Origin: an uncultured Nitrososphaerota archaeon
GTDB lineage: Archaea; Asgardarchaeota; Njordarchaeia; Njordarchaeales; Panguiarchaeaceae
Assembly: GCA_964636085.1 (NCBI GenBank)
Contig: CAZWPQ010000002.1
Location: forward strand, 97,249 to 116,768
Direction: 5' to 3'
Length of the DNA: 19,520 nt
The position numbers were made by a program, and so were the translations under genes. The notes beneath the pieces are model-generated. The model was not told where the DNA came from, did not search any database, and worked only from the letters and a program-made list of their open reading frames with translations. Positions 5,872-19,520 of this stretch are shown here, one piece after another (the first letter of the stretch is position 1; the number at the start of each line of letters is the position of its first letter).

Positions 5872-6345
5872 TCAAGAATCCTTCTCCACAGATATCCGAG
5901 ACCCAACATCCATCATATAATGCATAGCGAGATACCTTATAAACCCAAGACAAAGTCTCTCATCCCCCGCAACAACAACCTTGCTGGGTAACTCAACACC
6001 GACAAGCAGTCCAAGATCGGAAACCCCAATAGGAAACCTAACGCAATTCACACTCATACAGATAGCATCACGATAACACTTAGTAGTCAATATCTCCTTT
6101 TCCTCTATTTTACCTCCAAAGCTTTTTATCAAATACTCAATAAGATCAGTATTGCTCTTCGGAGCTGAGACGAAAATTTTAGTTCTGTAATAGTCGCCAT
6201 GTTTTGTGGAATAATCATATCTAACTGGAGCCCCGTAGCCAATGAGGGTGGCCTTAAGCATCAGAAGCTTTTCCATCTCTTTCGGGGGCTTAAAACCAAT
6301 ACGTACAATCTCTTCAACATCAAATTCTCTTAGATCCTCAGCCAT
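5872..6345 (-). CDS. Hypothetical protein (157 aa)
   Basis: ATG-started ORF with protein-like composition and an AT-rich promoter-like upstream region; no motif recognised. Confidence 0.65.
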   Translation of the reverse strand: MAEDLREFDVEEIVRIGFKPPKEMEKLLMLKATLIGYGAPVRYDYSTKHGDYYRTKIFVSAPKSNTDLIEYLIKSFGGKIEEKEILTTKCYRDAICMSVNCVRFPIGVSDLGLLVGVELPSKVVVAGDERLCLGFIRYLAMHYMMDVGSRISVEKDS

Positions 6346-6474: not shown

Positions 6475-7266
6475 TTAAATGCCGAGTACGTATCTCCAAA
6501 ATCTTGGACACTCACTACATCTACCCTTCAATTTTCCTGTCCTCTTATAGTACTTAAAAACTTTATCGGTGACCTCTTGCCTGATCCATCTGAGAATATT
6601 CATGATAGCTTCTACACTCCTATTTATGTCGTCTATAGCTTCTCTATACGTCGCGTGTATCTGTTTCTCCACGGATATTATTGCGTCTATAATATCCCCG
6701 GGACTAGCACCCTTTTTTATCTTAGCCACAGGATATGAACCCACCTCTAATGTGTTACTAGATGACGTTAATGAGGTACTTGCATGTTTTTTCACAAAAA
6801 ACTCACCGCTGTATAAGCCATGAATTATTGCTGAACATGCACCATCGATATTTATGTGTTCAGTGCGCGATCCCATATATTCGTTGAGCAACTCTATGAT
6901 CTTCTTTCTAATATCTCTAAGCAATCTTTGTGCATGAGTATTATGTCTGGAAGCCATGTTGAGGAAATTTCTGATGGCTTTCTCTATATCTCTATAATGC
7001 TCTAAAAACAAACGTACCCTACTGGAGAATTCACTATCCATATGAATGATATTCCATTCTATACTTAGGAATTCACTATCCCTTAGGAAAATCTCACCAT
7101 TAATATAATGAACCCTACTGATGATTGATAAAAATCGTTTTGCTCCAGCGATGATTTCCCTATAGTGTCTCACCTTCGCCTTCTGATACCTCTTATACCT
7201 AATACTAGCAAACATAGCACATAGAGTTATGATTGCACTGACTAAGCACTCCACCCAAGATAGCAT
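6475..7266 (-). CDS. Hypothetical protein with N-terminal TM anchor, helical body and C-terminal GxCxxCP motif
   Basis: GGTGG SD-like motif before the ATG; hydrophobic N-terminus (CLVSAIITLCAMFASI) followed by basic RYKRYQKAK; amphipathic helices; LKGRCSECP near the C-terminus. Confidence 0.7.
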   Translation of the reverse strand: MLSWVECLVSAIITLCAMFASIRYKRYQKAKVRHYREIIAGAKRFLSIISRVHYINGEIFLRDSEFLSIEWNIIHMDSEFSSRVRLFLEHYRDIEKAIRNFLNMASRHNTHAQRLLRDIRKKIIELLNEYMGSRTEHINIDGACSAIIHGLYSGEFFVKKHASTSLTSSSNTLEVGSYPVAKIKKGASPGDIIDAIISVEKQIHATYREAIDDINRSVEAIMNILRWIRQEVTDKVFKYYKRTGKLKGRCSECPRFWRYVLGI

Positions 7267-7453: not shown

Positions 7454-7930
7454 TTAATAGGATATGACTTCATCCAGTATGGAAGCTATATGCGCTGCTA
7501 TCTTACCTCGGACCATCAAACATATTTCATGGTTTTCTACTAATCCTCCCCAAGTGATATTTGCAGATCCTACAATAGCTATTCTCCTGTCGATAATTAT
7601 TACTTTTGCATGGAGATGCCGGCCAGTAATTTTGTTGAAATCAAAAAGTTTAACATTTTTATATTTCTTACACACGTCAAGCAACAGTGTGCGGACATGA
7701 TCTGGCTGGTCGTGAAGACTATCCACTACAATATAAACACGCACTCCATTTTTTGCAGCATTCCTAAGTCTCGCAATTATTGGGTCTATACCAGAGCCGA
7801 ACCTATATGTTGCTATAATTATTTCATATCCCGCGTCCTCAAGTAACTTTAACAGGACCGATTCAAAGGATCTATAGCCTTTCCCTGTGAATAAATACCC
7901 CGTGACAAGGATCTCAATTTCGGAGCTCAT
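7454..7930 (-). CDS. drmC: DISARM phospholipase D-family nuclease DrmC (single HKD domain)
   Basis: HAKVIIID (HxKxxxxD), followed by VGSAN and ENHE. ATGA overlap with the drmB stop; third position in drmA-drmB-drmC order. Confidence 0.85.
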   Translation of the reverse strand: MSSEIEILVTGYLFTGKGYRSFESVLLKLLEDAGYEIIIATYRFGSGIDPIIARLRNAAKNGVRVYIVVDSLHDQPDHVRTLLLDVCKKYKNVKLFDFNKITGRHLHAKVIIIDRRIAIVGSANITWGGLVENHEICLMVRGKIAAHIASILDEVISY

Positions 7931-9777
7931 GGTGGATTCTCCAGTAACAAATGCCTATCAAGCCACATATTTCTGTGTTCACATGACGTCTCAGAAACGA
8001 ATAAACATGCATAACATGCTGACCCAACGTACATACCGTATTTGAATTCTTGCTCGTAACACAGTGGATCGTTTGAACATATTAATGCAAGTTCGTAGGC
8101 TCGTGCTAGCATTTCCTCAAACTTGTCGACCAGCGATATTAAACCACCTAAAGTTCCGTCGGCACCTGGTTGAACGGTGTACAGCACTATTCCTCCCAAG
8201 ACTCCTCCATCAGTTACTTTTAGATATACTCGCTCTCGTATCGATGCAGCAGAATACCCGGAGTCTATTGATAATGCACGTATCAGCAGGTGTGAAAGCG
8301 TATGCCACCACACAAAGGCCGGATGTAACTCTATGGGAAATTGGGGATCCCTAAACAAGTAACTCGAGTATTTTCTTTTCTCTGGCAATCGACTCCTTTG
8401 TTCCTCTAAGGCTTGAAGCCATGCCTTGGCAGATTTGCCAGATAAATCTAACATACCGTCATTTTCGTCGAGTGTAATGAAGATGCCCTCACCATAAAAC
8501 TCCGTGCCAATGAACCATAGATCGTTGTCCCTCTCAAAATACACGGGCACTAGACGTGAGCGCTCAGGATGTGGATTTAGCCTCCTATAACCCACTTGAA
8601 CGATGATTGTGTGGAGCCTAGAAATTGGGACAACGCGGAACATGTGACCCATTGGCCCCTTAACTTTTTCTCTTATACTTCTATAGTCAACATAAAACTT
8701 CACAGGAGCTTGTAGTGCACGATTATAAGGGGGATAGCCTTCCTTAGATGCTCTTAAAAGTGCGTCGAACTCATCCTCAAGCAATCCACTTAGCGTTGAT
8801 GGAATAGGTTTCGTGAGATCGTCTATCGCCGCCTTTATGTCTTTCCATTCATATTTCATTATACTTTCGATGATGCTTTCTGATATGTCCTCCACCTGTT
8901 GCAGGTTATTTAAGATCTCTTTGAACTCTTTCTCAGTCTTTGGACGGTGTGCACGCAATGCATAACGTATTGGAGTTATCGAGAGCAAATCGTGAAGTTC
9001 GGTAGCAGGTGGGGGCACCGTGAACAGAGAGATTATCTCCGTTATTCTTAAATTGGACGCCTGACGTTGAATAATTCTAGCTTCAGCATTACAGTTCCTC
9101 GGTCTATACGGAGCTTCATCAAGGTCTTCTCTCTCTGGATATCGTCCAGTGCACTTGTGTGACATTTTATAGTATGCGTAACCAAGGTTAACCTTCGCTC
9201 CACACTCTGGGCATATAATCTCTATCTGACTCAATTTACCACCTGGCTTCCACTCGAAATACCTCCTATTAGGACATCCTTTATTTTTATGATGAACAAG
9301 CTCAGGCCAGTCAACATCGTCTAGATGCCCATTAGGGCAGGCTAAGACAAATCGTATTGCCTCCTCAGGCCTCTTATTGAACTTAACACCAGACTTTTTA
9401 CACTCTGGACAGCCGTATCTCAAATCGTATAATATCCAATGCTCCGTACACAGAGCCCATCCGGGAAATAGTTTGGTTTTGTAGAGAAGGAGTGTGCCAG
9501 CACCGCTCGTTTCCTCGCTTGTGGGTATTCTACAGATCCTAATTTTACGACTTCCCACATCGTATCTAAGTCTCGTTTGAAGTATGTCTCTAAGAACTTT
9601 CTCAAACCTTCCAGGTTCGCGTATCTCAAAGTCCTCTGGGTTCCTTTTATTGGGCCTGAAAAATCCTCTATCAGGTAACGGTATAATTCTAGGACCGTAG
9701 GGGCTCTCTAGTATAGCACCCGGACCATAAGTTATTACGAATTTTGACTCTCTTATGCTCTGCCTTAATTTAGACAT
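7927..9777 (-). CDS. drmB: DISARM DUF1998 protein DrmB
   Basis: N-terminal ITYGPGA, RFVLACPNGHLDD and GEGIFI motifs. DUF1998 core HTLSHLLIRALSIDSGYSAASIRERVY and DGTLGGL, with C-terminal CSNDPLC...ACYAC...SETSCEHRN. The ORF track starts at 9804; the ATG at 9777 has GGTGA 5 nt upstream, and the ATG at 9783 overlaps the drmA stop (TGATG). Confidence 0.92.
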   Translation of the reverse strand: MSKLRQSIRESKFVITYGPGAILESPYGPRIIPLPDRGFFRPNKRNPEDFEIREPGRFEKVLRDILQTRLRYDVGSRKIRICRIPTSEETSGAGTLLLYKTKLFPGWALCTEHWILYDLRYGCPECKKSGVKFNKRPEEAIRFVLACPNGHLDDVDWPELVHHKNKGCPNRRYFEWKPGGKLSQIEIICPECGAKVNLGYAYYKMSHKCTGRYPEREDLDEAPYRPRNCNAEARIIQRQASNLRITEIISLFTVPPPATELHDLLSITPIRYALRAHRPKTEKEFKEILNNLQQVEDISESIIESIMKYEWKDIKAAIDDLTKPIPSTLSGLLEDEFDALLRASKEGYPPYNRALQAPVKFYVDYRSIREKVKGPMGHMFRVVPISRLHTIIVQVGYRRLNPHPERSRLVPVYFERDNDLWFIGTEFYGEGIFITLDENDGMLDLSGKSAKAWLQALEEQRSRLPEKRKYSSYLFRDPQFPIELHPAFVWWHTLSHLLIRALSIDSGYSAASIRERVYLKVTDGGVLGGIVLYTVQPGADGTLGGLISLVDKFEEMLARAYELALICSNDPLCYEQEFKYGMYVGSACYACLFVSETSCEHRNMWLDRHLLLENPP

Positions 9778-9782
9778 CCGCA

Positions 9783-12700
9783 TCACCTTCTCTTCTTTCG
9801 CCAAGGATATAAATCAAACGCTATTGTGCCTTCAATATCTCTCAGTGACTGAGGTGCATTTTGAAAGACAATATCCTTCTCAGCATGTTTATGTTTTAGA
9901 TCTCCAAGAACCACATGGAAATTTGTCGTGAAATATTCGTTATACCTGAGGTTATCATTGTGCTTCTTTGCAAGCGACTTCCAACGGTCAATTAATGAAT
10001 GTATAAATCTTTCAAGCCAAACAATATTTGGTCTTCGTGGATCTGGCTGTTCCTTAGCTCTCCAAGTGATATAATTTACTATTAAATCTCTAATACTACG
10101 TAAACATTTTCCCCTTTTGCCGCTATCATCTAGTAGCTTGATTAGATGTGCATATTCGTTCAAATAGATAGGATCCTTTAAAGTTAAACCATGTGTTCGA
10201 TAATTTACATTCCTGAGCATCGACACGATAACAGGTCCTAATGCTCGCTCTAGGGTTCCGACCGAGAATGGTGCCGCAGTTATCTCTTCAACTGATTTAT
10301 CAAGCATTCGATGGTACCCACAGAAGAACTCATAGTGGCTCAAATCACGTGGTCTTGAGGATCTGTATAGTGTTACAACAAGACCTCCTCTCATCCTACC
10401 AACTCGTCCAGTGGCCTGAATGTATGCTGATGTCGTTTTGGGCTGCCCATGAACTACCATGGAGGAAAGCCTCCCTACATCCACCCCGGTTCCGAACATT
10501 GACGTAGCAAATAATGCGTCTGGTGCATTGTGGGGATACTTGCGGTTTAGTATATTCAGTATCGACGGTAAATCTGTTGATTTTGTCCGGCTCGATAATT
10601 CAAGTACGGTCTCATCAGAAATATGTCGTCTTCTCTTACCAGCAATCTTCTGGAGCCTCTCAGGTATGTCTTGGCGGTATAGACTTAACGCCCCTGCAAG
10701 CTCCCTTACAGCGTTGAAGTAGCCAACGATTGTCCAAAACTTGTCAACTTCTGCAGGATTTACCCCCATATCAGAAAGATCTCTAGTGGCTTGAAGCATT
10801 CTTGCCCATATCCTAACTATTGGAGTTAACCCACCCTTTCCGGGGGCTAAAATACCCATGTACACCCTACCGGGTCTGTCCTCGTGTAATGGGTGTCTAT
10901 CGAGGAATTTAATGAAAAACCTGTCGTCGATATCTGGGCTTGGAGGCGGGAACAGAGCCAAATCTCTGATGAAAAGACTTCTTACATGTTCATGTGCTCT
11001 CTTTATTGTAGCTGTCGATGCTATGTATTTTGGCCTATGGTTTTTTATTGCTGCTAGGAACTCAACAGCGGATTCATATATCCCGACTAGGCTCCCAAGG
11101 GGCCCCTCAATGAGATGTAATTCATCTTGAATTATCAAGTCGGGAGGGTCTAAACGTGGAATTGGCTTGTATAAATTCAAGCCATAGTCCTCTGGGTGTT
11201 CACTGTCTGATTTTCCACTTAGTCGCTTTGATGCGTAAGGAATCAAGTAAGGTCTGTAGTACCCATATAGAGCGTGATAGTACTCAACATTCCCAAAAAG
11301 TGCGGCCGCACGGGCTTCGAAGGCAAGCCTTGCAATCTTGTCTACTGTGGCGATGAGGAATGAAGGTGGATTGTGATATATCTGTTCATCAACCGTCAAT
11401 GCTGGAATTGGTATTCGAGTAGACACAAACTGTCGCGAACCGCCGTTAAATGCATCACATCGGCAAAATTCTGGAACCATCTTGAAGACGTTTCCGTCAG
11501 GACTCTCTACAACACGCTTGTTAATTTCAATTCTGGTTTTCTGGAACAGTCTGAAAATCATATTCCTCGTTTGGTTTTTAGCTCGCTTTCTACCTTTAAC
11601 TGACCCACCGATGAATCTTAGGTCGAATAATGGCGAAAGTGGTGCTCCCTCAACCCAGAGAACTCCTTTGTTAAGTTTGCATTCTGGATTCGGGCAGAAT
11701 ATTTCAAAGTTGTACTTCTTCTCAGCACCGTATGGTGTCTTGAATTTAAGGATAAAGTAGCCTGGTCGCGATGGTCTTGCACAGACAATTTCCACTCGAA
11801 TTCCCTTCCCCCGTAGAAATTCCTTTAAATAATTCCATAGCTTATCTAAATCGTCAGACTTGATCGGGTTTCCCGAGGTAATCTTAAGTATCACTGTATA
11901 GTAATTTTTTCTCACTTGAACAACTTTTCTGTGTGTCACTCTCAAACCAATGACACCATTACTTTCAAAGAATTCGTTTATGCACCCCTGAAGCTGGTCG
12001 GCATCGAGATCTACTTCGGTTCTCACAAGCCAGTATATTATATGTTCTTTGTTTGATTCTAGACCCATTTCTGGTATGCTTAATATAGAGCCACATACCG
12101 GACAGTTCAGGACTTGGGCAGGTTCTCCTTGTACTATCGCTCCCTCCTTTATTTTATCTTCTAAGATACTAAGCGCCCCAGCGATTACTTGTTTGGTGTC
12201 TTGGCTCCATGTATCATGGAGCCTGTTCGGCGTCACATGGCCTCCTACCCAAAGCCCTATTGAAATTCGAGACGTCCCCCATATGAAGTCATCCTTTATT
12301 CCACACTTCTTCGGTCGCCATCCAATAGGTTCACCGCTGCCAAGACCGTAGACTCGAAGATATTCGCATGCAGTTATCATCCTAAGGGCTCTTCTAAACT
12401 GCTGTATCGTAAGAAGTCGCAGGGTGTATCTAAGAATCACAGCAACGCCAGTCCCTGTTTTATCGAGATTCTCTTCACTTCTTTTTAAGGCTTTCCGTCT
12501 GCGATAGGCTATAGCAAATGCTGCTAGAGCAAGGTAAGCTTCGGTTTTTCCAGCACCGGTTGGAACCCATAACAAATCACACACGTTTCTGTAATGAGAG
12601 TCCTCATTGACTATGGACTCCAATACTAGTAGAATGAATGCCAATTGAAAGGGGCGCCAAGTAAATTTTCCTCTCTTCGACCACTTTGCTTGAAGATCTA

Positions 12701-14006
12701 TAACTTTGTTGGCAAAACAAAATGCTAAACGTGCATCCTCATCCTTGATTAGAAGTTCTATCCCAGAACGTATACGTTGAAGGGTCTCCTCGCACTTTGC
12801 TATGATTCTTTCTGCTATTTTTCTCTCTAGCTCAGGCTGTGCTGAAATCTTACGTTTCCAATGTTTGATCCATTTTTTGTATGCTAGAACAATAGGCCTC
12901 AATGCCCGTTTAATCTCTTCCGGATCCCAAAGCTCAGCAAGTTCTTCAGCGCTCAGAACGGGCGGATCCCCATATTCCCCGCGCCAACCGATTTCGGGAA
13001 ATTCAACATTGCAAATGGGAGTGAACTCCGTCCTTGCATCTGGACATGCGAATGTCTCCCTAACGTCACTTCCATAAAGTTTTTCGACAAATTCTCCATC
13101 AACCCAATAGAAGGGTGGTGCTTTTGGTCTCAATTTTTCAATCTGAGGATTCTTAACAGGCTTCTCTGGATCGATGTCTCTCCATATTGCTGAGCACATG
13201 TGACCTCGAGCCTTAGCCGCCTTCTTCTGGTAGAGAAACTCCAGTTCCTCCCTTCTCGTGCTCATACCTTTAAGAGAGTATTGCTGAGAGACTAGACGCG
13301 TACCATCTGTCAACTTAACACGTATCTGAGGTTGGAAAATATGCTTCTCAATGAATTCATGCATATCTTTAGTAGGTCCCTGTTCTACACGCATGTTATT
13401 GATTAAGAATATGCTCACATGGATCTTGCTACCGTTTAGTCTTCGTGATAGTATATATAAACATATCTCAGCATCTTTCTTGGTGGTCTTACCTTTCTCA
13501 TTAAGACAATAGGATATCACCCTCTGTTTTTCTGGATCTATCGTAATAGGGTCTTTAGAGTACCATGCTCTCGGATAACGTTTCCATATATAAACATCCC
13601 CGTGTTTTTCTCTAAGGTATCGAGCCCACGTAATACAAATTTGCATCTTGGGCTCTCCACTCTCCTTCTCCACAACGAAAGAGAGACCTATTGATCGCGG
13701 GAGATTTTTTGGATTCAACACAGGCTGAACGAGTGCTGCAATGGTGACATCAACATCCTCATCCTCCACATCCTCTTCAAAGCTTTCCGCAAGTTTCGAA
13801 GGTAAAGATCCTTCAACATTCTCATCCACAATAGCTGATTCCGTAGGCTCCTTCACTGCTGGAGCTAGAACACCAGTTATGTACTCAGATAGAGGTGTAT
13901 CCCCTGGGGGCAAAGTCTCATAAATGCCATTCCTAGGTCCTAAAACTTCCTTTGCGAGCTCGCTGATAAGGAAAGCTCTTACCAGCAGATTCATTATACT
14001 CACCAT
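9783..14006 (-). CDS. drmA: DISARM SF2 helicase DrmA
   Basis: Q motif WRPFQLAF, Walker A PTGAGKTEAY, RYTLRLLTIQQF, IATVDK, Walker B IIQDELH, STAT, VGYFNAVREL, ATSMFGTGVDV, motif VI YIQATGRVGR and RPRDLSHYE. Immediately upstream of the DUF1998 and PLD genes. An alternative SD-supported start lies at 13994. Confidence 0.92.
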   Translation of the reverse strand: MVSIMNLLVRAFLISELAKEVLGPRNGIYETLPPGDTPLSEYITGVLAPAVKEPTESAIVDENVEGSLPSKLAESFEEDVEDEDVDVTIAALVQPVLNPKNLPRSIGLSFVVEKESGEPKMQICITWARYLREKHGDVYIWKRYPRAWYSKDPITIDPEKQRVISYCLNEKGKTTKKDAEICLYILSRRLNGSKIHVSIFLINNMRVEQGPTKDMHEFIEKHIFQPQIRVKLTDGTRLVSQQYSLKGMSTRREELEFLYQKKAAKARGHMCSAIWRDIDPEKPVKNPQIEKLRPKAPPFYWVDGEFVEKLYGSDVRETFACPDARTEFTPICNVEFPEIGWRGEYGDPPVLSAEELAELWDPEEIKRALRPIVLAYKKWIKHWKRKISAQPELERKIAERIIAKCEETLQRIRSGIELLIKDEDARLAFCFANKVIDLQAKWSKRGKFTWRPFQLAFILLVLESIVNEDSHYRNVCDLLWVPTGAGKTEAYLALAAFAIAYRRRKALKRSEENLDKTGTGVAVILRYTLRLLTIQQFRRALRMITACEYLRVYGLGSGEPIGWRPKKCGIKDDFIWGTSRISIGLWVGGHVTPNRLHDTWSQDTKQVIAGALSILEDKIKEGAIVQGEPAQVLNCPVCGSILSIPEMGLESNKEHIIYWLVRTEVDLDADQLQGCINEFFESNGVIGLRVTHRKVVQVRKNYYTVILKITSGNPIKSDDLDKLWNYLKEFLRGKGIRVEIVCARPSRPGYFILKFKTPYGAEKKYNFEIFCPNPECKLNKGVLWVEGAPLSPLFDLRFIGGSVKGRKRAKNQTRNMIFRLFQKTRIEINKRVVESPDGNVFKMVPEFCRCDAFNGGSRQFVSTRIPIPALTVDEQIYHNPPSFLIATVDKIARLAFEARAAALFGNVEYYHALYGYYRPYLIPYASKRLSGKSDSEHPEDYGLNLYKPIPRLDPPDLIIQDELHLIEGPLGSLVGIYESAVEFLAAIKNHRPKYIASTATIKRAHEHVRSLFIRDLALFPPPSPDIDDRFFIKFLDRHPLHEDRPGRVYMGILAPGKGGLTPIVRIWARMLQATRDLSDMGVNPAEVDKFWTIVGYFNAVRELAGALSLYRQDIPERLQKIAGKRRRHISDETVLELSSRTKSTDLPSILNILNRKYPHNAPDALFATSMFGTGVDVGRLSSMVVHGQPKTTSAYIQATGRVGRMRGGLVVTLYRSSRPRDLSHYEFFCGYHRMLDKSVEEITAAPFSVGTLERALGPVIVSMLRNVNYRTHGLTLKDPIYLNEYAHLIKLLDDSGKRGKCLRSIRDLIVNYITWRAKEQPDPRRPNIVWLERFIHSLIDRWKSLAKKHNDNLRYNEYFTTNFHVVLGDLKHKHAEKDIVFQNAPQSLRDIEGTIAFDLYPWRKKRR

Positions 14007-14295
14007 AAAAAATATAATTTCTTTCGCATTTAAAAATGTTTCGTTTGGTTATTTAAGAAAGCATACGATACAGGCAATGTAAATCATAATGAAATATGAT
14101 TCATTATGATAAATTATCATAAATTATTTTGAAATATGTTATTAAAACACAGCTTTTAAAGGAATACATCATCGAACGACTAGGCACCAAAGTCAGGAAG
14201 CATGTGGTTTATGCGTAATATTCCGTATATTCTTAATTTTCAACCATTTTTATAAGCCAATTTTTGTTATTATGTATGTATGGAGAGGAGTTATC
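14007..14295. promoter_or_regulatory. Divergent AT-rich promoter region between drmA and the methyltransferase operon
   Basis: TTTTTAAA on the minus strand (14029-14036), about 25 nt upstream of drmA. TTTATAA on the plus strand (14249-14255), upstream of the SD GGAGAGGAG (14282-14290). Confidence 0.55.
14083..14122. repeat. Two overlapping perfect inverted repeats (operator-like)
   Basis: ATCATAATGAA (14083-14093)-N6-TTCATTATGAT (14100-14110), and TTATGATAA (14104-14112)-A-TTATCATAA (14114-14122). Confidence 0.7.
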
Positions 14296-14682
14296 ATGGT
14301 TAAAAGCACAAAGAAGTATAAGACACTCAAAATTCCTCCTCCGATATTGGACTGCATTAACATTGCTAAAGCGAAAATATTAATGAGCATTAACACATTC
14401 ACGAATTTACCGGTAGATGTTCTTAGCCCTAAGAAATGCCCAATTTGTGGACACGAACTCGAGCCTTTTGAATATGATACTGGACGCACGGATCTGCTAG
14501 GATACGTGTTCTGTAGGAATTGTCGCTATAAGCAACCCGTTGTGTCTGACACAGATAAACTTGAAATATCTAAGATTTCGAAATATCTGAGCGTTGGCAC
14601 CTTAATTGGTTTTGGCATAGCGTCACTACTTTTCCTGATGAAAGAGGAGATCTCTGGGAAAAAAGACTTTGTAGAGGGGTAA
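14296..14682 (+). CDS. Small protein: RHH-like N-terminus, Zn ribbon (CPICG...CRNC), C-terminal TM helix
   Basis: The ORF track gives 14272; the ATG at 14296 follows the SD GGAGAGGAG. Contains KYKTLKIP followed by a helix, two CxxC pairs and hydrophobic LSVGTLIGFGIASLLFLM. The stop is 2 nt before the MTase ATG. Confidence 0.7.
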   Translation: MVKSTKKYKTLKIPPPILDCINIAKAKILMSINTFTNLPVDVLSPKKCPICGHELEPFEYDTGRTDLLGYVFCRNCRYKQPVVSDTDKLEISKISKYLSVGTLIGFGIASLLFLMKEEISGKKDFVEG

Positions 14683-14684
14683 CG

Positions 14685-15740
14685 ATGTATAGACCCACGG
14701 TTGTCGATCTATTCTGCGGTATGGGGGGTCTATCCTATGGATTTAAGCTATTGGGCGTATTTAAAATAAAGGGTGTTGATATAAATCACTACGCGACGCT
14801 CTCATATAGATTCAACAACATCGGAGAAACACATACTTGGGACATAAGATCTAAATTCCCAAGAAAATACCTCCCTCTAATTGTTGTAGGAGGACCTCCA
14901 TGCAAGCCATGGTCCGCGGTGAATGTTAGATTGAGGCGAAGATCCCATCCTGATTATAGTCTAATCTCTAAGTTTTTTGAATATATTAGGTGGATTAACT
15001 TAAGGTCAAAGGGCAAGAAACCAGCAGTTGTAGTACTGGAAAATGTGCCTCCCTTGAGGAGAGATCCAATTCTCCAAAAAGAGCTTGAAAAAATGCAAAA
15101 AATTGGCTTCTCCCACAGTGCACGTGTGATATCCTATTATGACTTCGGTGCTGCTAGCGGTAGAAGAAGACTTTTTGTGGTTCTAGTTAATGAAAACTTA
15201 GTACAATTAAGCGGACACGGTGCGGAGATCATCTTCGGTATACTCGAGGAATTTAGAAATAGAGTCAAAAGAAGACGAGTTGTTCGGGATGTTATCTCAG
15301 ATCTAGAGAATGTCGAGCGAAATAGCATCCCTGACCACGAGTGGCCAATTCTAAAGACAATACGCAGATACATTAATCTTTATAGGACGAATAAATACGG
15401 GTGGTATGTTCTAAGGTGGGATCAACCTGCTAAAAGTTTTGGGAACATCATGAAGACTTATATCCTACATCCTTCTGCTTGGGACTGGATTCATAATGGT
15501 CATAGTTCGGAGCGTTTTAACTCTGTGAGAGTTATCTCCGTGCGAGAGGCTATGAGGATTATGGGCTTTGGTGATAGCTTTACTAAGGATAAGGAACTTC
15601 AAGAGCTCAGCTATATTTTCCCTAAATCCGTTCCAATGAGCCACAAGTATCAAATGGTCGCTGATGCCGTTAGTCCCATCTTCTCAAAGTACTTAGCAGA
15701 AGCTATTCTAAAATTTCTCCAAGAGCATGGCTTAATGTAG
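14685..15740 (+). CDS. DNA (cytosine-5)-methyltransferase, DrmMII-like by context
   Basis: Motif I DLFCGMGG, motif II GVDIN, motif IV GGPPC (catalytic Cys), motif VI LENV, motif VIII RRR, motif IX SVREAMRIMGF and motif X QMVADAVSP. Confidence 0.92.
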   Translation: MYRPTVVDLFCGMGGLSYGFKLLGVFKIKGVDINHYATLSYRFNNIGETHTWDIRSKFPRKYLPLIVVGGPPCKPWSAVNVRLRRRSHPDYSLISKFFEYIRWINLRSKGKKPAVVVLENVPPLRRDPILQKELEKMQKIGFSHSARVISYYDFGAASGRRRLFVVLVNENLVQLSGHGAEIIFGILEEFRNRVKRRRVVRDVISDLENVERNSIPDHEWPILKTIRRYINLYRTNKYGWYVLRWDQPAKSFGNIMKTYILHPSAWDWIHNGHSSERFNSVRVISVREAMRIMGFGDSFTKDKELQELSYIFPKSVPMSHKYQMVADAVSPIFSKYLAEAILKFLQEHGLM

Positions 15741-15751
15741 GTTCCTCAGAT

Positions 15752-16477
15752 ATGAACAATCAGCAAAAGAAACCGCGTCGCATAATCAATATGTTAAGAC
15801 ATAAGATAAAAATCTATGGATCTACTTTCTCTGAGTTGATTGTGAAAAATTCGGGCAATATCATTGAAGATTGGCCATGGAGGCGAGCGAAGGATCCGTT
15901 TTTGATAATGATTACAGAGATGCTCCTCCAGAGAACCCGAAGGAGTCAAGTGCTAAGAGTGTATAATAAAATTGTTTCAGCAATGAATAAACATGGGAGC
16001 CTATGTGCCGTTCTCGAGATCTACGGTAAAGAGAGATTAATAAAGTTATTGAAATCTCTAGGTCTTATGTGGAGAGTTATTAATGTAATTAAAGCTGTAG
16101 AATTCGTATGTGAAAGATATGGCGGGAGAGTACCTAGCGATACCAAAAGTTTAACAAAAATTCCTGGTGTTGGCCAATATGTATCGAGAGCAGTACTATG
16201 CTTAGCCTTTGGGGAAGATGTGGCGATGGTTGACACCAATGTGGAGCGAATAGTATTTAGGTTCTTTTTAGGATGTGACCCACCTAAAATTGAAATTAGA
16301 AGGAATAGAGAATTTCTTAAACTAATTGATTCGCTGATTCCAAAAGGAAACGCTAGGGTGTTTAACCTCACGCTCATAGATCTGGGATCCAAAATCTGCC
16401 TACCAACGAGACCCAATTGCAGAAATTGTCCTCTTAATCTCCAATGCAAGTACGCTAAGACAGAGAACTTAAATTAA
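15752..16477 (+). CDS. mig: HhH-GPD DNA glycosylase with 4Fe-4S cluster; Mig/TDG-type T/G (U/G) mismatch glycosylase
   Basis: PWR...DP....TEMLLQRT, helix-hairpin-helix IPGVGQY (Tyr, not the lyase Lys of EndoIII), catalytic VDTN, FNL (MutY typically has FNQ) and CLPTRPNCRNCPLNLQC (Cx6Cx2Cx5C). No MutY C-terminal NUDIX-like domain. Located 11 nt downstream of a C5-MTase. Confidence 0.8.
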   Translation: MNNQQKKPRRIINMLRHKIKIYGSTFSELIVKNSGNIIEDWPWRRAKDPFLIMITEMLLQRTRRSQVLRVYNKIVSAMNKHGSLCAVLEIYGKERLIKLLKSLGLMWRVINVIKAVEFVCERYGGRVPSDTKSLTKIPGVGQYVSRAVLCLAFGEDVAMVDTNVERIVFRFFLGCDPPKIEIRRNREFLKLIDSLIPKGNARVFNLTLIDLGSKICLPTRPNCRNCPLNLQCKYAKTENLN

Positions 16478-16721
16478 AGTCTTGTGTCCCTGTTCTTTAA
16501 AAATATACGATTAAAGATAGAATTGTATGATAAATTAAAATATTTTTAAAAATTTCATGATTATTCTTCTATAATTAGTTAGGCATATGATGTATATGCG
16601 TCAACTGGCCATGTTATGTGAATATTACATCAGAAAGATTGGATTCGTGATTCAATTCGTAATCCTAATGGGCTCTATGGAATGCAAATTAATTTAAGCA
16701 TTTGTAATGAAGGTGTGCTAT

Positions 16722-18320
16722 ATGTTTGTTGAAAAGAAACCAAAGGGATGGTTAATTAATAATTATGTCGTTTCGAACCCCTTTGTTATATTCCATATAG
16801 CTGCTGAGATTATAAAGCATGGTGGAGAGCAGAACCTCGCCGACATCGCAAATACATTCCTAAGCACCGGAGACGAGGGATTTGGCAGTTACCTTTACAA
16901 CAAAATTTTAAACCTAACTATAGAGTCTTTTTATAATATTTTTAGAGAGGCGTATCCTTCAACGATAAGGGATAAGCCTAAGAGGGAAAAAGAACTTAAA
17001 AGATGGTTTCGGAAGGCCTTTTATAGGGTATGGTCTGCCGTGGTTAATTGGTATTCTGTCGTGTCCACACTAGAAAAAGCAAAAAAAGAGCTTAGACACG
17101 AAATGATAGGTGAGTACATCGACTTATTTAAAATGGCACCCTTAGAGTTTGTTCGCTTCACTACTCAGAAGGCTATTCCGCTCTACATCCAAAGTAAACG
17201 TAAGAGCGTCACATCGTCTAAACAAAATATTATTGTTAGAACATTAAGCATGTTGGACATGCAGTCATTTAAATACATTGTTCCAATAACAGCCCTTGTA
17301 ACTTTCTATGCCTACTCGGAGCCACTCTACATAATTTTCTCGATAATATACAATTTTGTTGCCAAGTACTTTAAAGAACTAAATTATCTCCTAGACTTAG
17401 GCAAGAAAATCATAACATCATCCATCGGTGGACTCAAACTCACAGTAAATGTAGACAAGCTTAGAAGAATAGTGTACCAAGCATTCGTGTCTAGGCTTAT
17501 CTTCACGATTGTAGGATCACAATACGAGAATAGAGTGCGAATACCAATAGAGTTTTTAATCAGTTTAGTATTACGCAGAAGGCGAGGATGGACTTGGTCT
17601 GAACTCTATGAAGAGAATCCAATACCCTTAGAAATATACCGTATAGTAAGTTGTTTGTTTTCTAAAAAGCCTGCCACCATGGTTTCTATCGCTTCAGGCA
17701 AACATGAGGACGATTTCGAACCAATCAAATTCAAATCAACACTTGATCTGCCTGATGATTATACGCATCTCAACTCATTCACAATCTCGGAAACAGCCCT
17801 TGCTTTATCTCTAGCGATGAAGTTTACCTTTTTAGCAATACTACAGTTGCCTGAGCATGAAATCGATCAAGGTTATCTAAAGAAAATGCTCTTAAGCTAT
17901 ATATTTACTCCTGCCGATGTTCTTATAGCATATTATAAAATTAAGGGCAAAACGCAAACAAGTGGATATGTCAGGATTGACGATTTAACAAGGGAGATCA
18001 TTAAGTCATACTCGGACAAGAAACTACTTAGTGGAACGCAGAGTATCTTTGACAGATATCTTGTTCTTGCCAACAATGAATCTAAGAGTTCGATACGTTC
18101 GATTGTAGAGGGGTTAATCCGTGGAGAAATACCCCTCTCTAACATACGAAGTTTAGGTTTCTCAGTAGGCTTCTGGCACGCATTACTAGGAAGCAGATAC
18201 ATGGATGTTCACACAGCTATTAGAGAGAAAGGTTTGGATATATATACTTATCGAAGACCGGTTGATGGATTTTTGTTCAATTTTAATATAACTGATTCGG
18301 AGGAGGTGATGTTTTTATGA
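16722..18320 (+). CDS. Hypothetical protein (~532 aa), mostly helical, coupled to the downstream ATPase
   Basis: Long ORF (track start 16707). The ATG at 16722 has AGGTG 6 nt upstream and AATTTAAG at 16691-16698. Its stop overlaps the next ATG (ATGA). No catalytic motif recognised. Confidence 0.75.
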   Translation: MFVEKKPKGWLINNYVVSNPFVIFHIAAEIIKHGGEQNLADIANTFLSTGDEGFGSYLYNKILNLTIESFYNIFREAYPSTIRDKPKREKELKRWFRKAFYRVWSAVVNWYSVVSTLEKAKKELRHEMIGEYIDLFKMAPLEFVRFTTQKAIPLYIQSKRKSVTSSKQNIIVRTLSMLDMQSFKYIVPITALVTFYAYSEPLYIIFSIIYNFVAKYFKELNYLLDLGKKIITSSIGGLKLTVNVDKLRRIVYQAFVSRLIFTIVGSQYENRVRIPIEFLISLVLRRRRGWTWSELYEENPIPLEIYRIVSCLFSKKPATMVSIASGKHEDDFEPIKFKSTLDLPDDYTHLNSFTISETALALSLAMKFTFLAILQLPEHEIDQGYLKKMLLSYIFTPADVLIAYYKIKGKTQTSGYVRIDDLTREIIKSYSDKKLLSGTQSIFDRYLVLANNESKSSIRSIVEGLIRGEIPLSNIRSLGFSVGFWHALLGSRYMDVHTAIREKGLDIYTYRRPVDGFLFNFNITDSEEVMFL

Positions 18321-19520
18321 GCTCAAGCGGTTCCTTACCAGATCTCTTGTCAAAATTAGGAAACAAAATAGACCTTCCATCACCATTCCTTAGTCGTACA
18401 ATTAGAATTGGATATACCACGAGGGAAGAATTACCATTTATTAGAATAAAGTTGAATTCGCCATTTGATATATTAGAGACTGATGTATCTATAGCTGACA
18501 GAACTGTTATACTTATTCTAGGCTCTAAGGGCACTGGAAAATCGTTTCTGGCTGTTTATCTTCGTAATAAATTTGAAAAAGAAGGCTTTACAGTTATACC
18601 TGTCGACTGCCAACAAGAAAAAATTGGGAGTTTAGAGGACTACCTTACTAAGTACATCTCGAATAAACTTAATGTTAAAGATGGAAGTGGTTCTGTAGCG
18701 GAGCTATTAAACCAGTCTATATCAAAATTCGGTAGGGTTGCTATAATCATTGATGACTTTAGTGATACATTAAAGAGAGATTTCAGCAATGCTGTCGAGG
18801 TCGTCAGTAATCTCCTTGAACTTGCTGTGAAATTCAGAGGTGGATTGGGTGGCAAACTGTTCAAGTTAGCTATGGTCATGCAAACAGATGAGGGAGACCC
18901 ACTTAAATACACAGTTGACTTCTTAAATGAACTTTATTCACTTGCGACTGAGAGGAAAAGCTTTGCTTATGATATTCTCTTTGGCTATGGTTTTAGAAAT
19001 CCTATCGATATATTCGCTGAAAAATCCACATTTTCTAGAATTGAAGACGAGGAAAGTCTCGAGCGAGCTATGTTCAGGGAGGCCTCCGCGGTCTTTGTTG
19101 ATGGGCTTTGGTTCAAAATTAGAAGCTTCTTAGCTATGGATCGAAGCATTTATGATGTCCTAATGCGTGTTAAAAAGGTAATTTATGAGTTTTTTGATTT
19201 CTATTTAATGAATTCTTCAGGGTTCATAAAACAACTTAAGAGTGCAACCCAAGGTAGTGATAAGTCTGAGGAAACTGTAATCAAAGAAATGGCAAAAGTA
19301 GCATTGGAAATCATAAACAGAGGTAATGTAATTAATGAATTTATAAATGATGAAGTGCTGGATGTTCTCGCAATGCATCTAATTCTCCAGCCTACAAAGT
19401 ACATTAAGCTTGAGCATGGTGAAGAAACACTAATATGTGAAGGCACTACGGGGGGTTTAGGTGGGTTTAATGCTGTGGCTGTATTAGACGTCTTGGACAG
19501 GATTTATGATGGAGCTATAA
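18317..19520 (+). CDS. P-loop NTPase (AAA+/STAND-like ATP-binding protein), 3'-truncated by the window
   Basis: Manual translation from ATG 18317 (SD GGAGGTGA at 18302-18309) stays open for 401 codons to the window end: MSSSGSLPDLL...VILILGSKGTGKS (Walker A, 18521-18544)...VAIIIDD (Walker B, ~18740-18757)...LAMVMQT. It is absent from the ORF track because no stop falls within the window. Confidence 0.85.
   Translation, partial: MSSSGSLPDLLSKLGNKIDLPSPFLSRTIRIGYTTREELPFIRIKLNSPFDILETDVSIADRTVILILGSKGTGKSFLAVYLRNKFEKEGFTVIPVDCQQEKIGSLEDYLTKYISNKLNVKDGSGSVAELLNQSISKFGRVAIIIDDFSDTLKRDFSNAVEVVSNLLELAVKFRGGLGGKLFKLAMVMQTDEGDPLKYTVDFLNELYSLATERKSFAYDILFGYGFRNPIDIFAEKSTFSRIEDEESLERAMFREASAVFVDGLWFKIRSFLAMDRSIYDVLMRVKKVIYEFFDFYLMNSSGFIKQLKSATQGSDKSEETVIKEMAKVALEIINRGNVINEFINDEVLDVLAMHLILQPTKYIKLEHGEETLICEGTTGGLGGFNAVAVLDVLDRIYDGAI

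What the first reader, a model, noticed from the sequence alone, without database searches (positions are those of the whole stretch)
16722..19520. Unannotated P-loop ATPase translationally coupled to a large unknown protein
Seen: a reading frame of at least 401 codons, absent from the ORF track, begins at an ATGA overlap with a strong SD. It has Walker A GSKGTGKS, Walker B IIIDD and a polar sensor-like position (VMQT), followed by a long helical region. The upstream 532-aa protein has no recognisable motif, although its C-terminal part (LIAYYKIK...GYVRIDDLTREI) could be winged-helix-like. The pair has its own AT-rich upstream gap (16478-16721). Inference: it is either the sensor/motor arm of this DISARM variant or the start of a separate undescribed defence system.
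Basis: partly seen in the sequence, partly recalled or inferred. Interest (0 to 1): 0.7.

Follow-up and report, generated by a model that had tools for sequence, protein, structure and literature searches.

The report
Orphan protein plus P-loop ATPase pair
Next to a DISARM antiviral gene cluster in an Asgard-type archaeon sit two overlapping genes, one with no detectable relative and one cut-off ATPase recognisable only by its nucleotide-binding core, so they are real but their role stays unproven.

Summary
ORF-A (16722-18320, 532 aa) and ORF-B (18317-19519, at least 401 aa, cut by the contig end) are real coding genes. They are joined by an ATGA overlap with a 10-nt Shine-Dalgarno match, and they follow a 244-bp gap of 28% GC. 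ORF-B has intact Walker A and B motifs.

ORF-A matched only itself among 1.84 billion cluster representatives and in every family library tried. ORF-B matches only generic P-loop models. Its AAA_22 score of 34 bits is in the range that SRP54/FtsY GTPases also reach. No subfamily test was met: STAND, Orc1/Cdc6, IstB, BrxC, SspC and DrmE all failed. Both single-sequence structure models were poor (pLDDT 34 and 42).

Neither gene recurs at the 6 related DISARM loci I fetched. Their codon usage is native-like, whereas the drm genes look foreign. Both points weigh against a conserved DISARM subunit. On the other side, this DISARM has no DrmD or DrmE, and a 12-mer from the drmA/methylase operator recurs in the ORF-A upstream gap.

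My best reading (about 0.4) is an autonomous, lineage-specific NTPase-plus-partner module at the edge of the island. A defence role is inferred from position only.

The scan's index holds this stretch only from this same genome, not from other DNA.

The parts
16478..16721 (.). AT-rich intergenic region upstream of ORF-A; likely holds its promoter. It contains a 12-mer (16526-16537) identical to the left half and centre of the palindrome in the drmA/methylase divergent promoter (14105-14116).
   Evidence: GC 0.283, 244 bp. The 12-mer occurs 3 times in the 2.41-Mb genome, two of them here. Only 2 of 239 other AT-rich 244-nt windows share 12 nt or more with the operator region.
16710..16715 (+). 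Shine-Dalgarno-like AAGGTG, 6 nt before the ORF-A start codon
16722..18320 (+). ORF-A: 532 aa, 61.8 kDa, pI 9.4, predicted mostly helical, two marginal hydrophobic segments (residues 191-209 and 355-377); no detectable relative
   Evidence: only itself among 1,835,955,588 representatives; no family or PDB hit
18301..18310 (+). Strong Shine-Dalgarno match AGGAGGTGAT inside the end of ORF-A, 6 nt before the ORF-B start
18317..19519 (+). ORF-B: P-loop NTPase, at least 401 aa, cut by the contig end; the fragment has pI 5.1. The start ATG overlaps the ORF-A stop (ATGA).
   Evidence: Pfam AAA_22 E 3.7e-8, 34.2 bits against a cut-off of 27
18521..18544 (+). Walker A GSKGTGKS (residues 69-76; invariant Lys is K75)
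18743..18757 (+). Walker B IIIDD (residues 143-147)
   Evidence: the strand order beta1-alpha-beta2-alpha-alpha-beta3 in the AF2 model has pLDDT about 60-76 over residues 80-170

Best explanation
ORF-A and ORF-B form a genuine two-gene operon with its own upstream region. It lies at the edge of, but is not a conserved part of, the neighbouring class-2-like DISARM system (drmA, drmB, drmC, a C5 methylase and a Mig-like glycosylase).

Shown:
- Both are coding genes, and they are translationally coupled (ATGA overlap plus a strong internal SD).
- ORF-B has an intact ATP/GTP-binding core.
- ORF-A is a basic protein without relatives.
- The ORF-B fragment is acidic.

Inferred:
- The two products are made in fixed ratio and act as a complex.
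- ORF-B works as a nucleotide-driven switch or loader.
- ORF-A is the basic, possibly nucleic-acid- or membrane-associated partner that carries the output.
- Given the position beside a defence system in a variable, strain-specific region, the module is most likely a lineage-specific, fast-evolving antiviral or anti-mobile-element device that acts independently of DISARM.

The C-terminal part of ORF-B, which would tell a sensor from a motor, lies beyond the contig end.
For: - Real and coupled genes.
- Own 244-bp, 28% GC upstream gap, whereas the gaps inside the methylase operon are 2 and 11 nt.
- P-loop core: Pfam AAA_22 34.2 bits, above the cut-off of 27. Below their cut-offs are AAA_16, nSTAND3, ATPase_2 and the NCBIfam Sll1717-family ATPase (27.7 against 75).
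- ORF-A matched only itself: 1 hit among 8000 scored candidates and 1 among 1,835,955,588 representatives. It had no relative in the metagenome, genome or viral contig scans, in phages or plasmids, or in 40 relatives.
- ORF-B has no relative beyond the P-loop. In 40 relatives the best non-self hit was 19.5 bits; in 400 genomes of the phylum it was 21.3 bits.
- Not conserved with DISARM: among 103 ORF entries from 9 loci of 6 genomes that carry related drmB, the best ORF-A E-value was 0.7. The best ORF-B E-value was 0.0021, to a small AAA_14 ATPase. The Mig-like glycosylase does recur there, at G209 and G395.
- Composition: codon scores are 0.18 and 0.24 for the pair (genome 0.211, sd 0.034), against 0.135-0.15 for drmA/drmB, 0.133 for the methylase and 0.087 for the glycosylase. 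GC is 0.37-0.38 for the pair against 0.43-0.44 for drmA/drmB.
- Opposite charge: pI 9.4 against 5.1.
Against: - No homologue exists, so there is no conservation, no gene-neighbourhood statistic and no test of selection.
- No defence-family hit is better than a P-loop-only match: PADLOC mad8 1.3e-4, DRT helicase 5.5e-4.
- Native-like codon usage fits an ordinary lineage-specific gene equally well.
- Both structure models are unusable for fold assignment (pLDDT 42.3 and 34.4). Foldseek against the PDB gave no hit at E <= 0.001.
- Complex formation and nucleic-acid binding are inferences from coupling and charge only.
- The shared 12-mer could mean co-regulation with DISARM, which favours the rival reading.
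Confidence: 0.4

Rival explanations
1. The pair is a lineage-specific auxiliary arm of this DISARM system. It would fill the slot that DrmD or DrmE holds elsewhere and be co-regulated with drmABC and the methylase operon through a shared operator.
For: - PADLOC finds DrmA (E = 0), DrmB (8e-205), DrmC (7e-45) and DrmMII (8e-84) in the window, but no DrmD or DrmE.
- Pfam DrmE_C was not found in the whole assembly, which is 83% complete.
- In print, DISARM comprises drmABC, a methylase and drmD or drmE (PMC11529989, passages read), plus 'additional auxiliary genes' (PMC9142583, passages read).
- Related loci in the phylum carry varied auxiliaries: a UvrD-like plus a NERD helicase (G209), an SNF2 helicase (G144), a GajB-like helicase plus a small AAA ATPase (G077), and unknown proteins of 469 aa and 1013 aa (G395, G063).
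- The 12-mer TATGATAAATTA of the operator palindrome recurs in the ORF-A gap. It has 3 copies in the genome, and only 2 of 239 control windows match as well.
Against: - There is no sequence match to any Drm model.
- The pair was not found at the 6 related loci fetched.
- A 244-bp gap separates it from the methylase operon, whereas auxiliaries elsewhere are packed into the drm operon.
- Codon usage and GC differ from drmA/drmB.
- The 12-mer covers one half-site only and was noticed after the fact among 10 similar-length repeat families.
Confidence: 0.2
2. The pair has nothing to do with defence. It is an ordinary lineage-specific operon of this archaeon (regulatory, structural or other) that happens to lie next to an inserted DISARM island.
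For: - Codon usage is within 1 sd of the genome mean, while the drm genes lie about 2 sd below it.
- No defence-specific family hit.
- The genome has 17 places matching AAA_22, so such ATPases are common in it.
- 'Same genus' genomes are very distant: 44-48% identity for the neighbouring genes tested. Absence of relatives is therefore less remarkable.
Against: - Not a single relative of ORF-A exists among 1.84 billion representatives. That points to fast evolution or recent origin, which is more typical of conflict genes.
- The position is beside a defence system and near the variable surface-protein and effector loci noted by the scan (unchecked).
- Contigs break inside ORF-B at the same place in two runs.
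Confidence: 0.3
3. The pair is part of a mobile element: a helper ATPase of the IstB, TniB/TnsC or Orc1 type with a novel transposase or replication protein. The assembly would break there because the element is repeated or variable.
For: - AAA_22 is the Pfam model that such helper ATPases also match (recalled).
- Weak IstB and DnaC-like hits: NCBIfam IS21 helper 16.5 bits, PHROG DnaC-like E about 0.06.
- A coupled 'large protein then ATPase' order resembles IstA-IstB (recalled).
- The contig ends inside ORF-B.
Against: - The IstB score of 16.5 is far below its cut-off of 200.
- No DDE, rve or integrase hit in ORF-A.
- Single copy in the genome.
- No tRNA in the window and no terminal inverted repeats of note.
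- No match in phages, plasmids or viral contigs.
- No Cdc6 C-terminal domain hit in the 401 residues present.
Confidence: 0.07
4. The frames are not real genes, only chance open frames or an assembly artefact.
For: No relatives. No RNA run is listed for the stretch.
Against: - Open frames of 532 and more than 401 codons in 38% GC DNA.
- In-frame codon scores at genome level with negative off-frame scores.
- SD motifs at both starts.
- A bona fide P-loop domain.
- The same sequence, without differences, in contigs of four public runs from four studies.
Confidence: 0.03

Closest known systems
Generic P-loop NTPases matched by Pfam AAA_22 (PF13401), with AAA_16, ATPase_2 and nSTAND3 below threshold
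   Same: Walker A and Walker B at the expected spacing. A beta-alpha-beta core. A score above the AAA_22 gathering threshold (34.2 against 27).
   Different: The model is unspecific: FtsY/SRP54 GTPases of the same phylum score 27.1-30.9 bits on it. Nothing outside roughly residues 55-205 matches any family. No relative shares the rest of the protein.
STAND / Avs-type defence NTPases
   Same: hhhhDD Walker B. Weak nSTAND3, AAA_16 and NB-ARC-like signals. Helical region predicted after the core (low confidence). A defence-island setting.
   Different: All STAND models are below threshold. The N-terminal extension is only about 60 residues, so any effector would have to be a separate protein. The sensor part, if there is one, lies beyond the contig end.
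DISARM auxiliary proteins (DrmD SNF2 helicase; DrmE)
   Same: Position next to drmABC plus drmMII in a system that lacks both DrmD and DrmE.
   Different: No match to PADLOC Drm models, Pfam DrmE_C or NCBIfam. A separate transcription unit. Not found at related DISARM loci. ORF-A is predicted all-helical rather than helicase-shaped (low confidence; that DrmE is helicase-shaped comes from earlier scan notes, unchecked).
NCBIfam NF047389, P-loop ATPase of the Sll1717 family, and Asgard look-alikes
   Same: This is the longest specific match: residues 59-205 to model positions 26-156, E 1.4e-6. Several Asgard look-alikes of 560-780 aa also follow an upstream gene closely.
   Different: 27.7 bits against a cut-off of 75. 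A profile of 8 Asgard look-alikes aligns to ORF-B over only 39 columns around the P-loop, probability 36%. No paper in the held library names this family.
Transposition or replication helper ATPases coupled to an upstream enzyme (IstA/IstB, TniA/TniB, Orc1/Cdc6)
   Same: The gene order 'large protein then overlapping AAA-type ATPase'.
   Different: IstB scores 16.5 bits against a cut-off of 200. No transposase or Cdc6 C-terminal domain. Single copy.

Membership tests
P-loop NTPase, Pfam AAA_22 (PF13401) | Score above the curated gathering threshold | tested here: met
   34.2 bits against 27, residues 61-165; 35.6 bits in the six-frame genome search. Low specificity: SRP54-type GTPases score 27.1-30.9 bits.
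P-loop NTPase, Pfam AAA_22 (PF13401) | Walker A GxxxxGK[ST] and Walker B hhhhD[DE] | tested here: met
   GSKGTGKS at residues 69-76 and IIIDD at 143-147
STAND NTPases (NB-ARC, NACHT, nSTAND, AAA_16; Avs-like) | Match to a STAND NTPase model above its threshold | tested here: not met
   nSTAND3 21.3 against 27.2; AAA_16 22.2 against 32.6; no NB-ARC or NACHT hit at E <= 0.01
STAND NTPases (NB-ARC, NACHT, nSTAND, AAA_16; Avs-like) | NBD, helical domain and winged-helix module after the core | tested here: inconclusive
   The AF2 model has helices at 245-355 and a hairpin at 362-375, but pLDDT there is below 50. No Foldseek hit at E <= 0.001.
STAND NTPases (NB-ARC, NACHT, nSTAND, AAA_16; Avs-like) | C-terminal repeat or sensor domain | not testable with these tools
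   The gene is cut at residue 401 by the contig end. Public contigs gave no usable extension.
DISARM component (DrmD or DrmE, or any Drm protein) | Match to PADLOC Drm models, Pfam DrmE_C (PF24957) or NCBIfam DrmE models | tested here: not met
   ORF-A: 0 families in PADLOC, Pfam and NCBIfam. ORF-B: no Drm model. PF24957 has no match in the whole assembly.
DISARM component (DrmD or DrmE, or any Drm protein) | Recurrent co-location with drmABC in related systems | tested here: not met
   No relative at any of the 6 fetched loci (one, G319, is only 4.7 kb). Best E 0.7 for ORF-A and 0.0021 for ORF-B, the latter to a small AAA_14 ATPase. Three further drmB matches (G076, G159 and the second locus of G077) were not fetched.
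DISARM component (DrmD or DrmE, or any Drm protein) | Same operon as drm genes or the methylase | tested here: inconclusive
   Same strand as the methylase operon, but after a 244-bp AT-rich gap. A shared 12-mer hints at common regulation. No transcript data.
Orc1/Cdc6 initiators | AAA+ core plus Cdc6 C-terminal winged helix; match to curated models | tested here: not met
   No Cdc6_C or Orc1/Cdc6 NCBIfam hit in residues 1-401. The Foldseek hit to 2qby_A has E 0.012 and TM 0.25.
IS21-type IstA/IstB or Tn7-like TniB/TnsC pairs | Helper ATPase model match, upstream DDE transposase, multiple copies or element ends | tested here: not met
   IstB 16.5 bits against 200. No transposase domain. Single copy. 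No flanking repeats of note.
BREX BrxC/BrxD, SspC and other PADLOC ATPases | Match to the PADLOC model | tested here: not met
   No Brx or Ssp hit at E <= 0.01. The best hits were P-loop-only: mad8 1.3e-4, DRT NERD-helicase 5.5e-4, AbiO, Nhi, SngB.

The most novel reading that the evidence does not exclude
The pair is an undescribed NTPase-based immune module specific to this Asgard lineage. It could be a stand-alone two-gene system in which a P-loop switch controls a fold-unknown basic effector. Or it could be a replacement for DrmD/DrmE that is wired to DISARM through a shared operator. ORF-A would then be the founding member of a protein family with no known relatives.
Probability: 0.2. Interest if true: 0.6.

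Novelty: new variant of a known kind. Interest (0 to 1): 0.3.

Why it matters
If the pair is a working immune module, it adds an archaeal, and specifically Asgard, defence device with a protein of unknown fold. It would also show how a DISARM system without DrmD or DrmE is completed or accompanied.

As things stand it documents two things. A 532-aa protein has no detectable relative in the very large collections searched. And an AAA_22 label on a neighbouring ATPase carries little information.

Because no homologue exists and the gene is truncated, no open question becomes testable yet without new sequence or bench work.

Tried and rejected
Searches that led nowhere:
- Extending the contig. 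No k-mer overlap of 15-127 nt between the C2 end and any of the 102 contigs. Logan contigs of 4 runs are short; one 254-nt record overruns the end by 43 nt, but its letters were not shown.
- Homologues of ORF-A.
- Homologues of ORF-B.
- Family libraries for both proteins: Pfam, PADLOC, NCBIfam and PHROGs. Pfam was also run at E <= 10 on three pieces of ORF-A and on the two ends of ORF-B. The only extra hit was DUF596, E 0.03-0.12, 13-15 bits, which I discarded.
- PDB by sequence: nothing useful.
- ESM Atlas. Its own ORF-A model has pLDDT 0.35 and all TM scores are <= 0.21 by query. The ORF-B neighbours are small archaeal AAA-type clusters, at scores of 0.93 that shuffled proteins reach 4-10% of the time.
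- AF2 single-sequence models were poor. Foldseek against the PDB gave no hit at E <= 0.001 for either. ORF-B hits were generic P-loop folds (SRP54, thymidylate kinase, NifH, Cdc6) at TM <= 0.25.
- The Sll1717-like lead. 31 of 400 genomes have sub-threshold matches and 0 of 400 pass the cut-off. A profile of 8 of them aligns with ORF-B over 39 P-loop columns only. Rejected.
- Synteny with the 4 'same genus' genomes. Neighbouring genes are only 44-48% identical or not found. Abandoned.
- Expression: no RNA holder was listed.
- A membrane role for ORF-A: two hydrophobic windows of 1.46 and 1.71 on the Kyte-Doolittle scale are marginal. Left open.
- The literature search for 'Sll1717' found 0 papers.

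Limits of what I read:
- I did not search print for the gene pair itself, since it has no name and no relatives.
Supplemental tables of Asgard defence surveys (for example those cited in PMC11529989) could list comparable loci.
- Ofir et al. 2018 was not read. Its content is cited only through passages of PMC9142583 and PMC11529989.
- For the other papers I saw only the search listings.
- The finer taxon name (Njordarchaeota) comes from an unchecked scan note. I verified only TBP and 8 Ras-family GTPase genes in the genome.
Full report
Setting.

The window is G000:C2:97249-116768, and its last base is the last base of the contig. The assembly has 2.41 Mb in 102 contigs, is 83% complete and has 39% GC. 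It encodes TBP and 8 strong Ras-family GTPases. This fits the Asgard assignment given by an earlier, unchecked scan note.

PADLOC identifies these genes in the window:
- DrmC, 7454-7930 on the minus strand, E 7e-45.
- DrmB, 7927-9804 on the minus strand, E 8e-205.
- DrmA, 9783-14006 on the minus strand, E 0.
- Divergently on the plus strand, a small zinc-ribbon protein at 14272-14682.
- A C5 methylase at 14685-15740, matching DrmMII at 8e-84.
- A MutY/Mig-like HhH-GPD glycosylase at 15752-16477, matching the PADLOC 'Type II nicking endonuclease' model at 5e-41 and NCBIfam mutY at 1.5e-40, below that model's cut-off.

No DrmD or DrmE was found in the window. Pfam DrmE_C has no match in the whole assembly.

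The observation.

- ORF-A runs 16722-18320 (532 aa; an alternative ATG lies at 16707). AAGGTG sits 6 nt before 16722, and the public gene call also starts there.
- ORF-B starts at ATG 18317, which overlaps the ORF-A TGA stop. It is preceded by AGGAGGTGAT at 18301-18310 and stays open for 401 codons to the contig end.
- Walker A (residues 69-76), Walker B (143-147) and VMQT (187-190) are there.
- The upstream gap is 244 bp at 28% GC.
- Both frames score as coding with a codon model trained on 810 long ORFs of the genome. The scores are 0.182 and 0.238, against a genome mean of 0.211, sd 0.034; off-frames are negative.
- The same DNA, without a single listed difference in 16478-19520, lies in Logan contigs of four runs from four studies of hydrothermal vent or sediment metagenomes.

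What ORF-A is.

Nothing known matches it.
- Pfam, PADLOC, NCBIfam, PHROGs and PDB sequences gave no hit. Pieces scanned at E <= 10 gave only a 13-15-bit DUF596 match.
- The word-indexed search of 5.8 billion clusters found only the protein itself.
- The exhaustive phmmer run over 1,835,955,588 representatives also found only itself.
- Degenerate-pattern scans of metagenome, genome and viral contigs gave no relative. tblastn on phages and plasmids gave none.
- A six-frame search of 40 relatives gave none either; the only other row there is a 15-bit match inside a 52-aa frame with a stop.
- The protein is basic (pI 9.4), predicted almost all-helical, and has two marginal hydrophobic stretches.
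- The AF2 model (pLDDT 34.4) and the Atlas model (pLDDT 0.35) are too poor for fold comparison.
- The suggested winged helix in the C-terminal part has no support and could not be tested.

What ORF-B is.

It is a P-loop NTPase, and little more can be said.
- AAA_22 is the only model above its threshold (34.2 against 27). AAA_16, nSTAND3, ATPase_2 and AAA fall below theirs.
- The longest specific match is to the NCBIfam Sll1717-family ATPase: 27.7 bits against a cut-off of 75, residues 59-205.
- PADLOC and PHROG hits cover the P-loop only.
- The AAA_22 label is weak evidence. The best six-frame matches to ORF-B in 400 genomes of the phylum reach at most 21.3 bits. Of the 5 such matching proteins scanned, 3 are FtsY/SRP54 GTPases, which themselves score 27.1-30.9 bits on AAA_22; the other two are a generic AAA_22/AAA_14 ATPase and an ATPase_2 protein.
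- No relative shares anything beyond residue 185 or so.
- In the AF2 model only residues 80-170 reach pLDDT 60-76. They show the expected strand-helix alternation. The rest is below 50.
- Foldseek returned only generic P-loop folds, none at E <= 0.001.
- A profile built from 8 Asgard Sll1717-like ATPases aligns to ORF-B over 39 columns around the P-loop, probability 36%.

Relation to DISARM.

DrmB relatives occur in 9 of 400 genomes of the phylum, the own genome included. I fetched context from 6 of the other 8. G076, G159 and a second G077 locus were not fetched, and G319 is a 4.7-kb contig with only drmA and drmB.

Among 103 ORF entries of 120 aa or more from these loci (overlapping loci give duplicates), the best match to ORF-A has E 0.7. 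The best match to ORF-B has E 0.0021, to a 202-aa AAA_14 ATPase. By contrast, the Mig-like glycosylase recurs at G209 (5.8e-39) and G395 (2.3e-9), and the C5 methylase recurs at three loci.

The closest system, G395 (DrmB 42% identical), reads DrmA, DrmB, DrmC, a 469-aa unknown protein, a Mig-like glycosylase and a C5 methylase. It is followed directly by PmbA/TldD and a Ras GTPase. The conserved unit therefore ends at the methylase and glycosylase.

Composition points the same way. The drmA, drmB and methylase genes score 0.13-0.15 and the glycosylase 0.087 on the genome's codon model. The drmA and drmB genes have GC of 0.43-0.44. ORF-A and ORF-B score 0.18 and 0.24 at GC 0.37-0.38.

Three things keep the DISARM-arm reading alive.
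- DrmD and DrmE are missing here.
- The related loci carry very different auxiliary NTPases: UvrD-like and NERD helicases, an SNF2 helicase, and a GajB-like helicase.
- The 12-mer TATGATAAATTA, which is the left half and centre of the 9-1-9 palindrome at 14104-14122, recurs at 16526-16537. It has only 3 copies in the genome. Only 2 of 239 other AT-rich windows match the operator region over 12 nt or more. This was noticed after the fact among ten repeat families of similar length, so I treat it as a lead only.

Mechanism.

Shown:
- two coupled genes;
- a competent nucleotide-binding site;
- opposite net charge of the two products;
- no relatives;
- a native-like composition;
- a position at the edge of a defence island and at an assembly break.

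Inferred:
- the products form a complex;
- ORF-B is a nucleotide-driven switch or loader;
- ORF-A is the output or adaptor, possibly on nucleic acid;
- the module serves conflict with viruses or mobile elements on its own.

I give this reading 0.4. The DISARM-auxiliary reading gets 0.2, an unrelated lineage-specific operon 0.3, a mobile-element helper pair 0.07 and an artefact 0.03.

Novelty and verdict.

DISARM in Asgard archaea is already in print (PMC11529989, passages read). The pair itself is not assignable to any described system. Without homologues, a full-length ORF-B or a usable model, there is no positive evidence that it is a system at all. It is a real and tidy gene pair of unknown role, and the interest is modest.

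The scan's index holds this stretch only from this same genome.

Noticed in passing
window 14104-14122 and 16526-16537: The 12-mer TATGATAAATTA, from the perfect 9-1-9 palindrome in the drmA/methylase divergent promoter, recurs in the ORF-A upstream gap. It has 3 copies in the 2.41-Mb genome, and only 2 of 239 AT-rich control windows match the operator region as well. This may be a shared regulator site.
   Followed up: partly
window 15752-16477; L027:18943-19593 (G209); L023:18832-19566 (G395): A Mig/MutY-like HhH-GPD glycosylase accompanies DISARM with a C5 methylase in 3 of the 7 Asgard loci looked at, the own locus included. It is a recurring repair partner for 5mC deamination rather than a one-off.
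   Followed up: partly
L023:17426-18835 (G395, 469 aa); L025:6596-9637 (G063, 1013 aa): In the two closest related DISARM operons a protein with no Pfam or PADLOC hit directly follows drmC, in the position where an auxiliary subunit would sit. Neither resembles ORF-A or the window's 263-aa ORF after drmC.
   Followed up: partly
L027 (G209), L029 (G144), L031 (G077): Other Asgard DrmA/DrmB cores are combined with different auxiliary NTPases: a UvrD-like plus a NERD helicase; an SNF2 helicase; and a GajB-like helicase plus a small AAA_14 ATPase plus a 1245-aa protein with a weak SspC match.
   Followed up: no
window 18468-18478 and onward: Logan contigs of two runs (X1, X2) both break at 18468-18478, just before the P-loop of ORF-B. 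In X1 the per-contig depth falls from 43 to 27 and then to 12-21 towards the window end. This may mean strain variation starts inside ORF-B, which would explain the assembly break. Depth per contig is a weak measure.
   Followed up: no
window 7454-16477 against 16722-19519: The drmA, drmB, methylase and glycosylase genes score 2 sd or more below the genome's codon-usage mean, and drmA and drmB have higher GC. ORF-A and ORF-B are native-like. The DISARM block looks like the more recent arrival.
   Followed up: partly
L055, L060, L063, L064 and others (Asgard genomes G391, G100, G095, G107): P-loop ATPases of 560-780 aa with sub-threshold Sll1717-family matches follow an upstream gene of about 360-395 aa, at gaps of 4 to about 220 nt, in several Asgard genomes. 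This may be a recurring uncharacterised pair. It is unrelated in sequence to ORF-A or ORF-B beyond the P-loop.
   Followed up: partly
window 5872-6345 and 6475-7266 (minus strand): Two ORFs downstream of drmC (157 and 263 aa) have no convincing family hit. The 157-aa protein has a 48%-identical relative in one same-genus genome.
   Followed up: no
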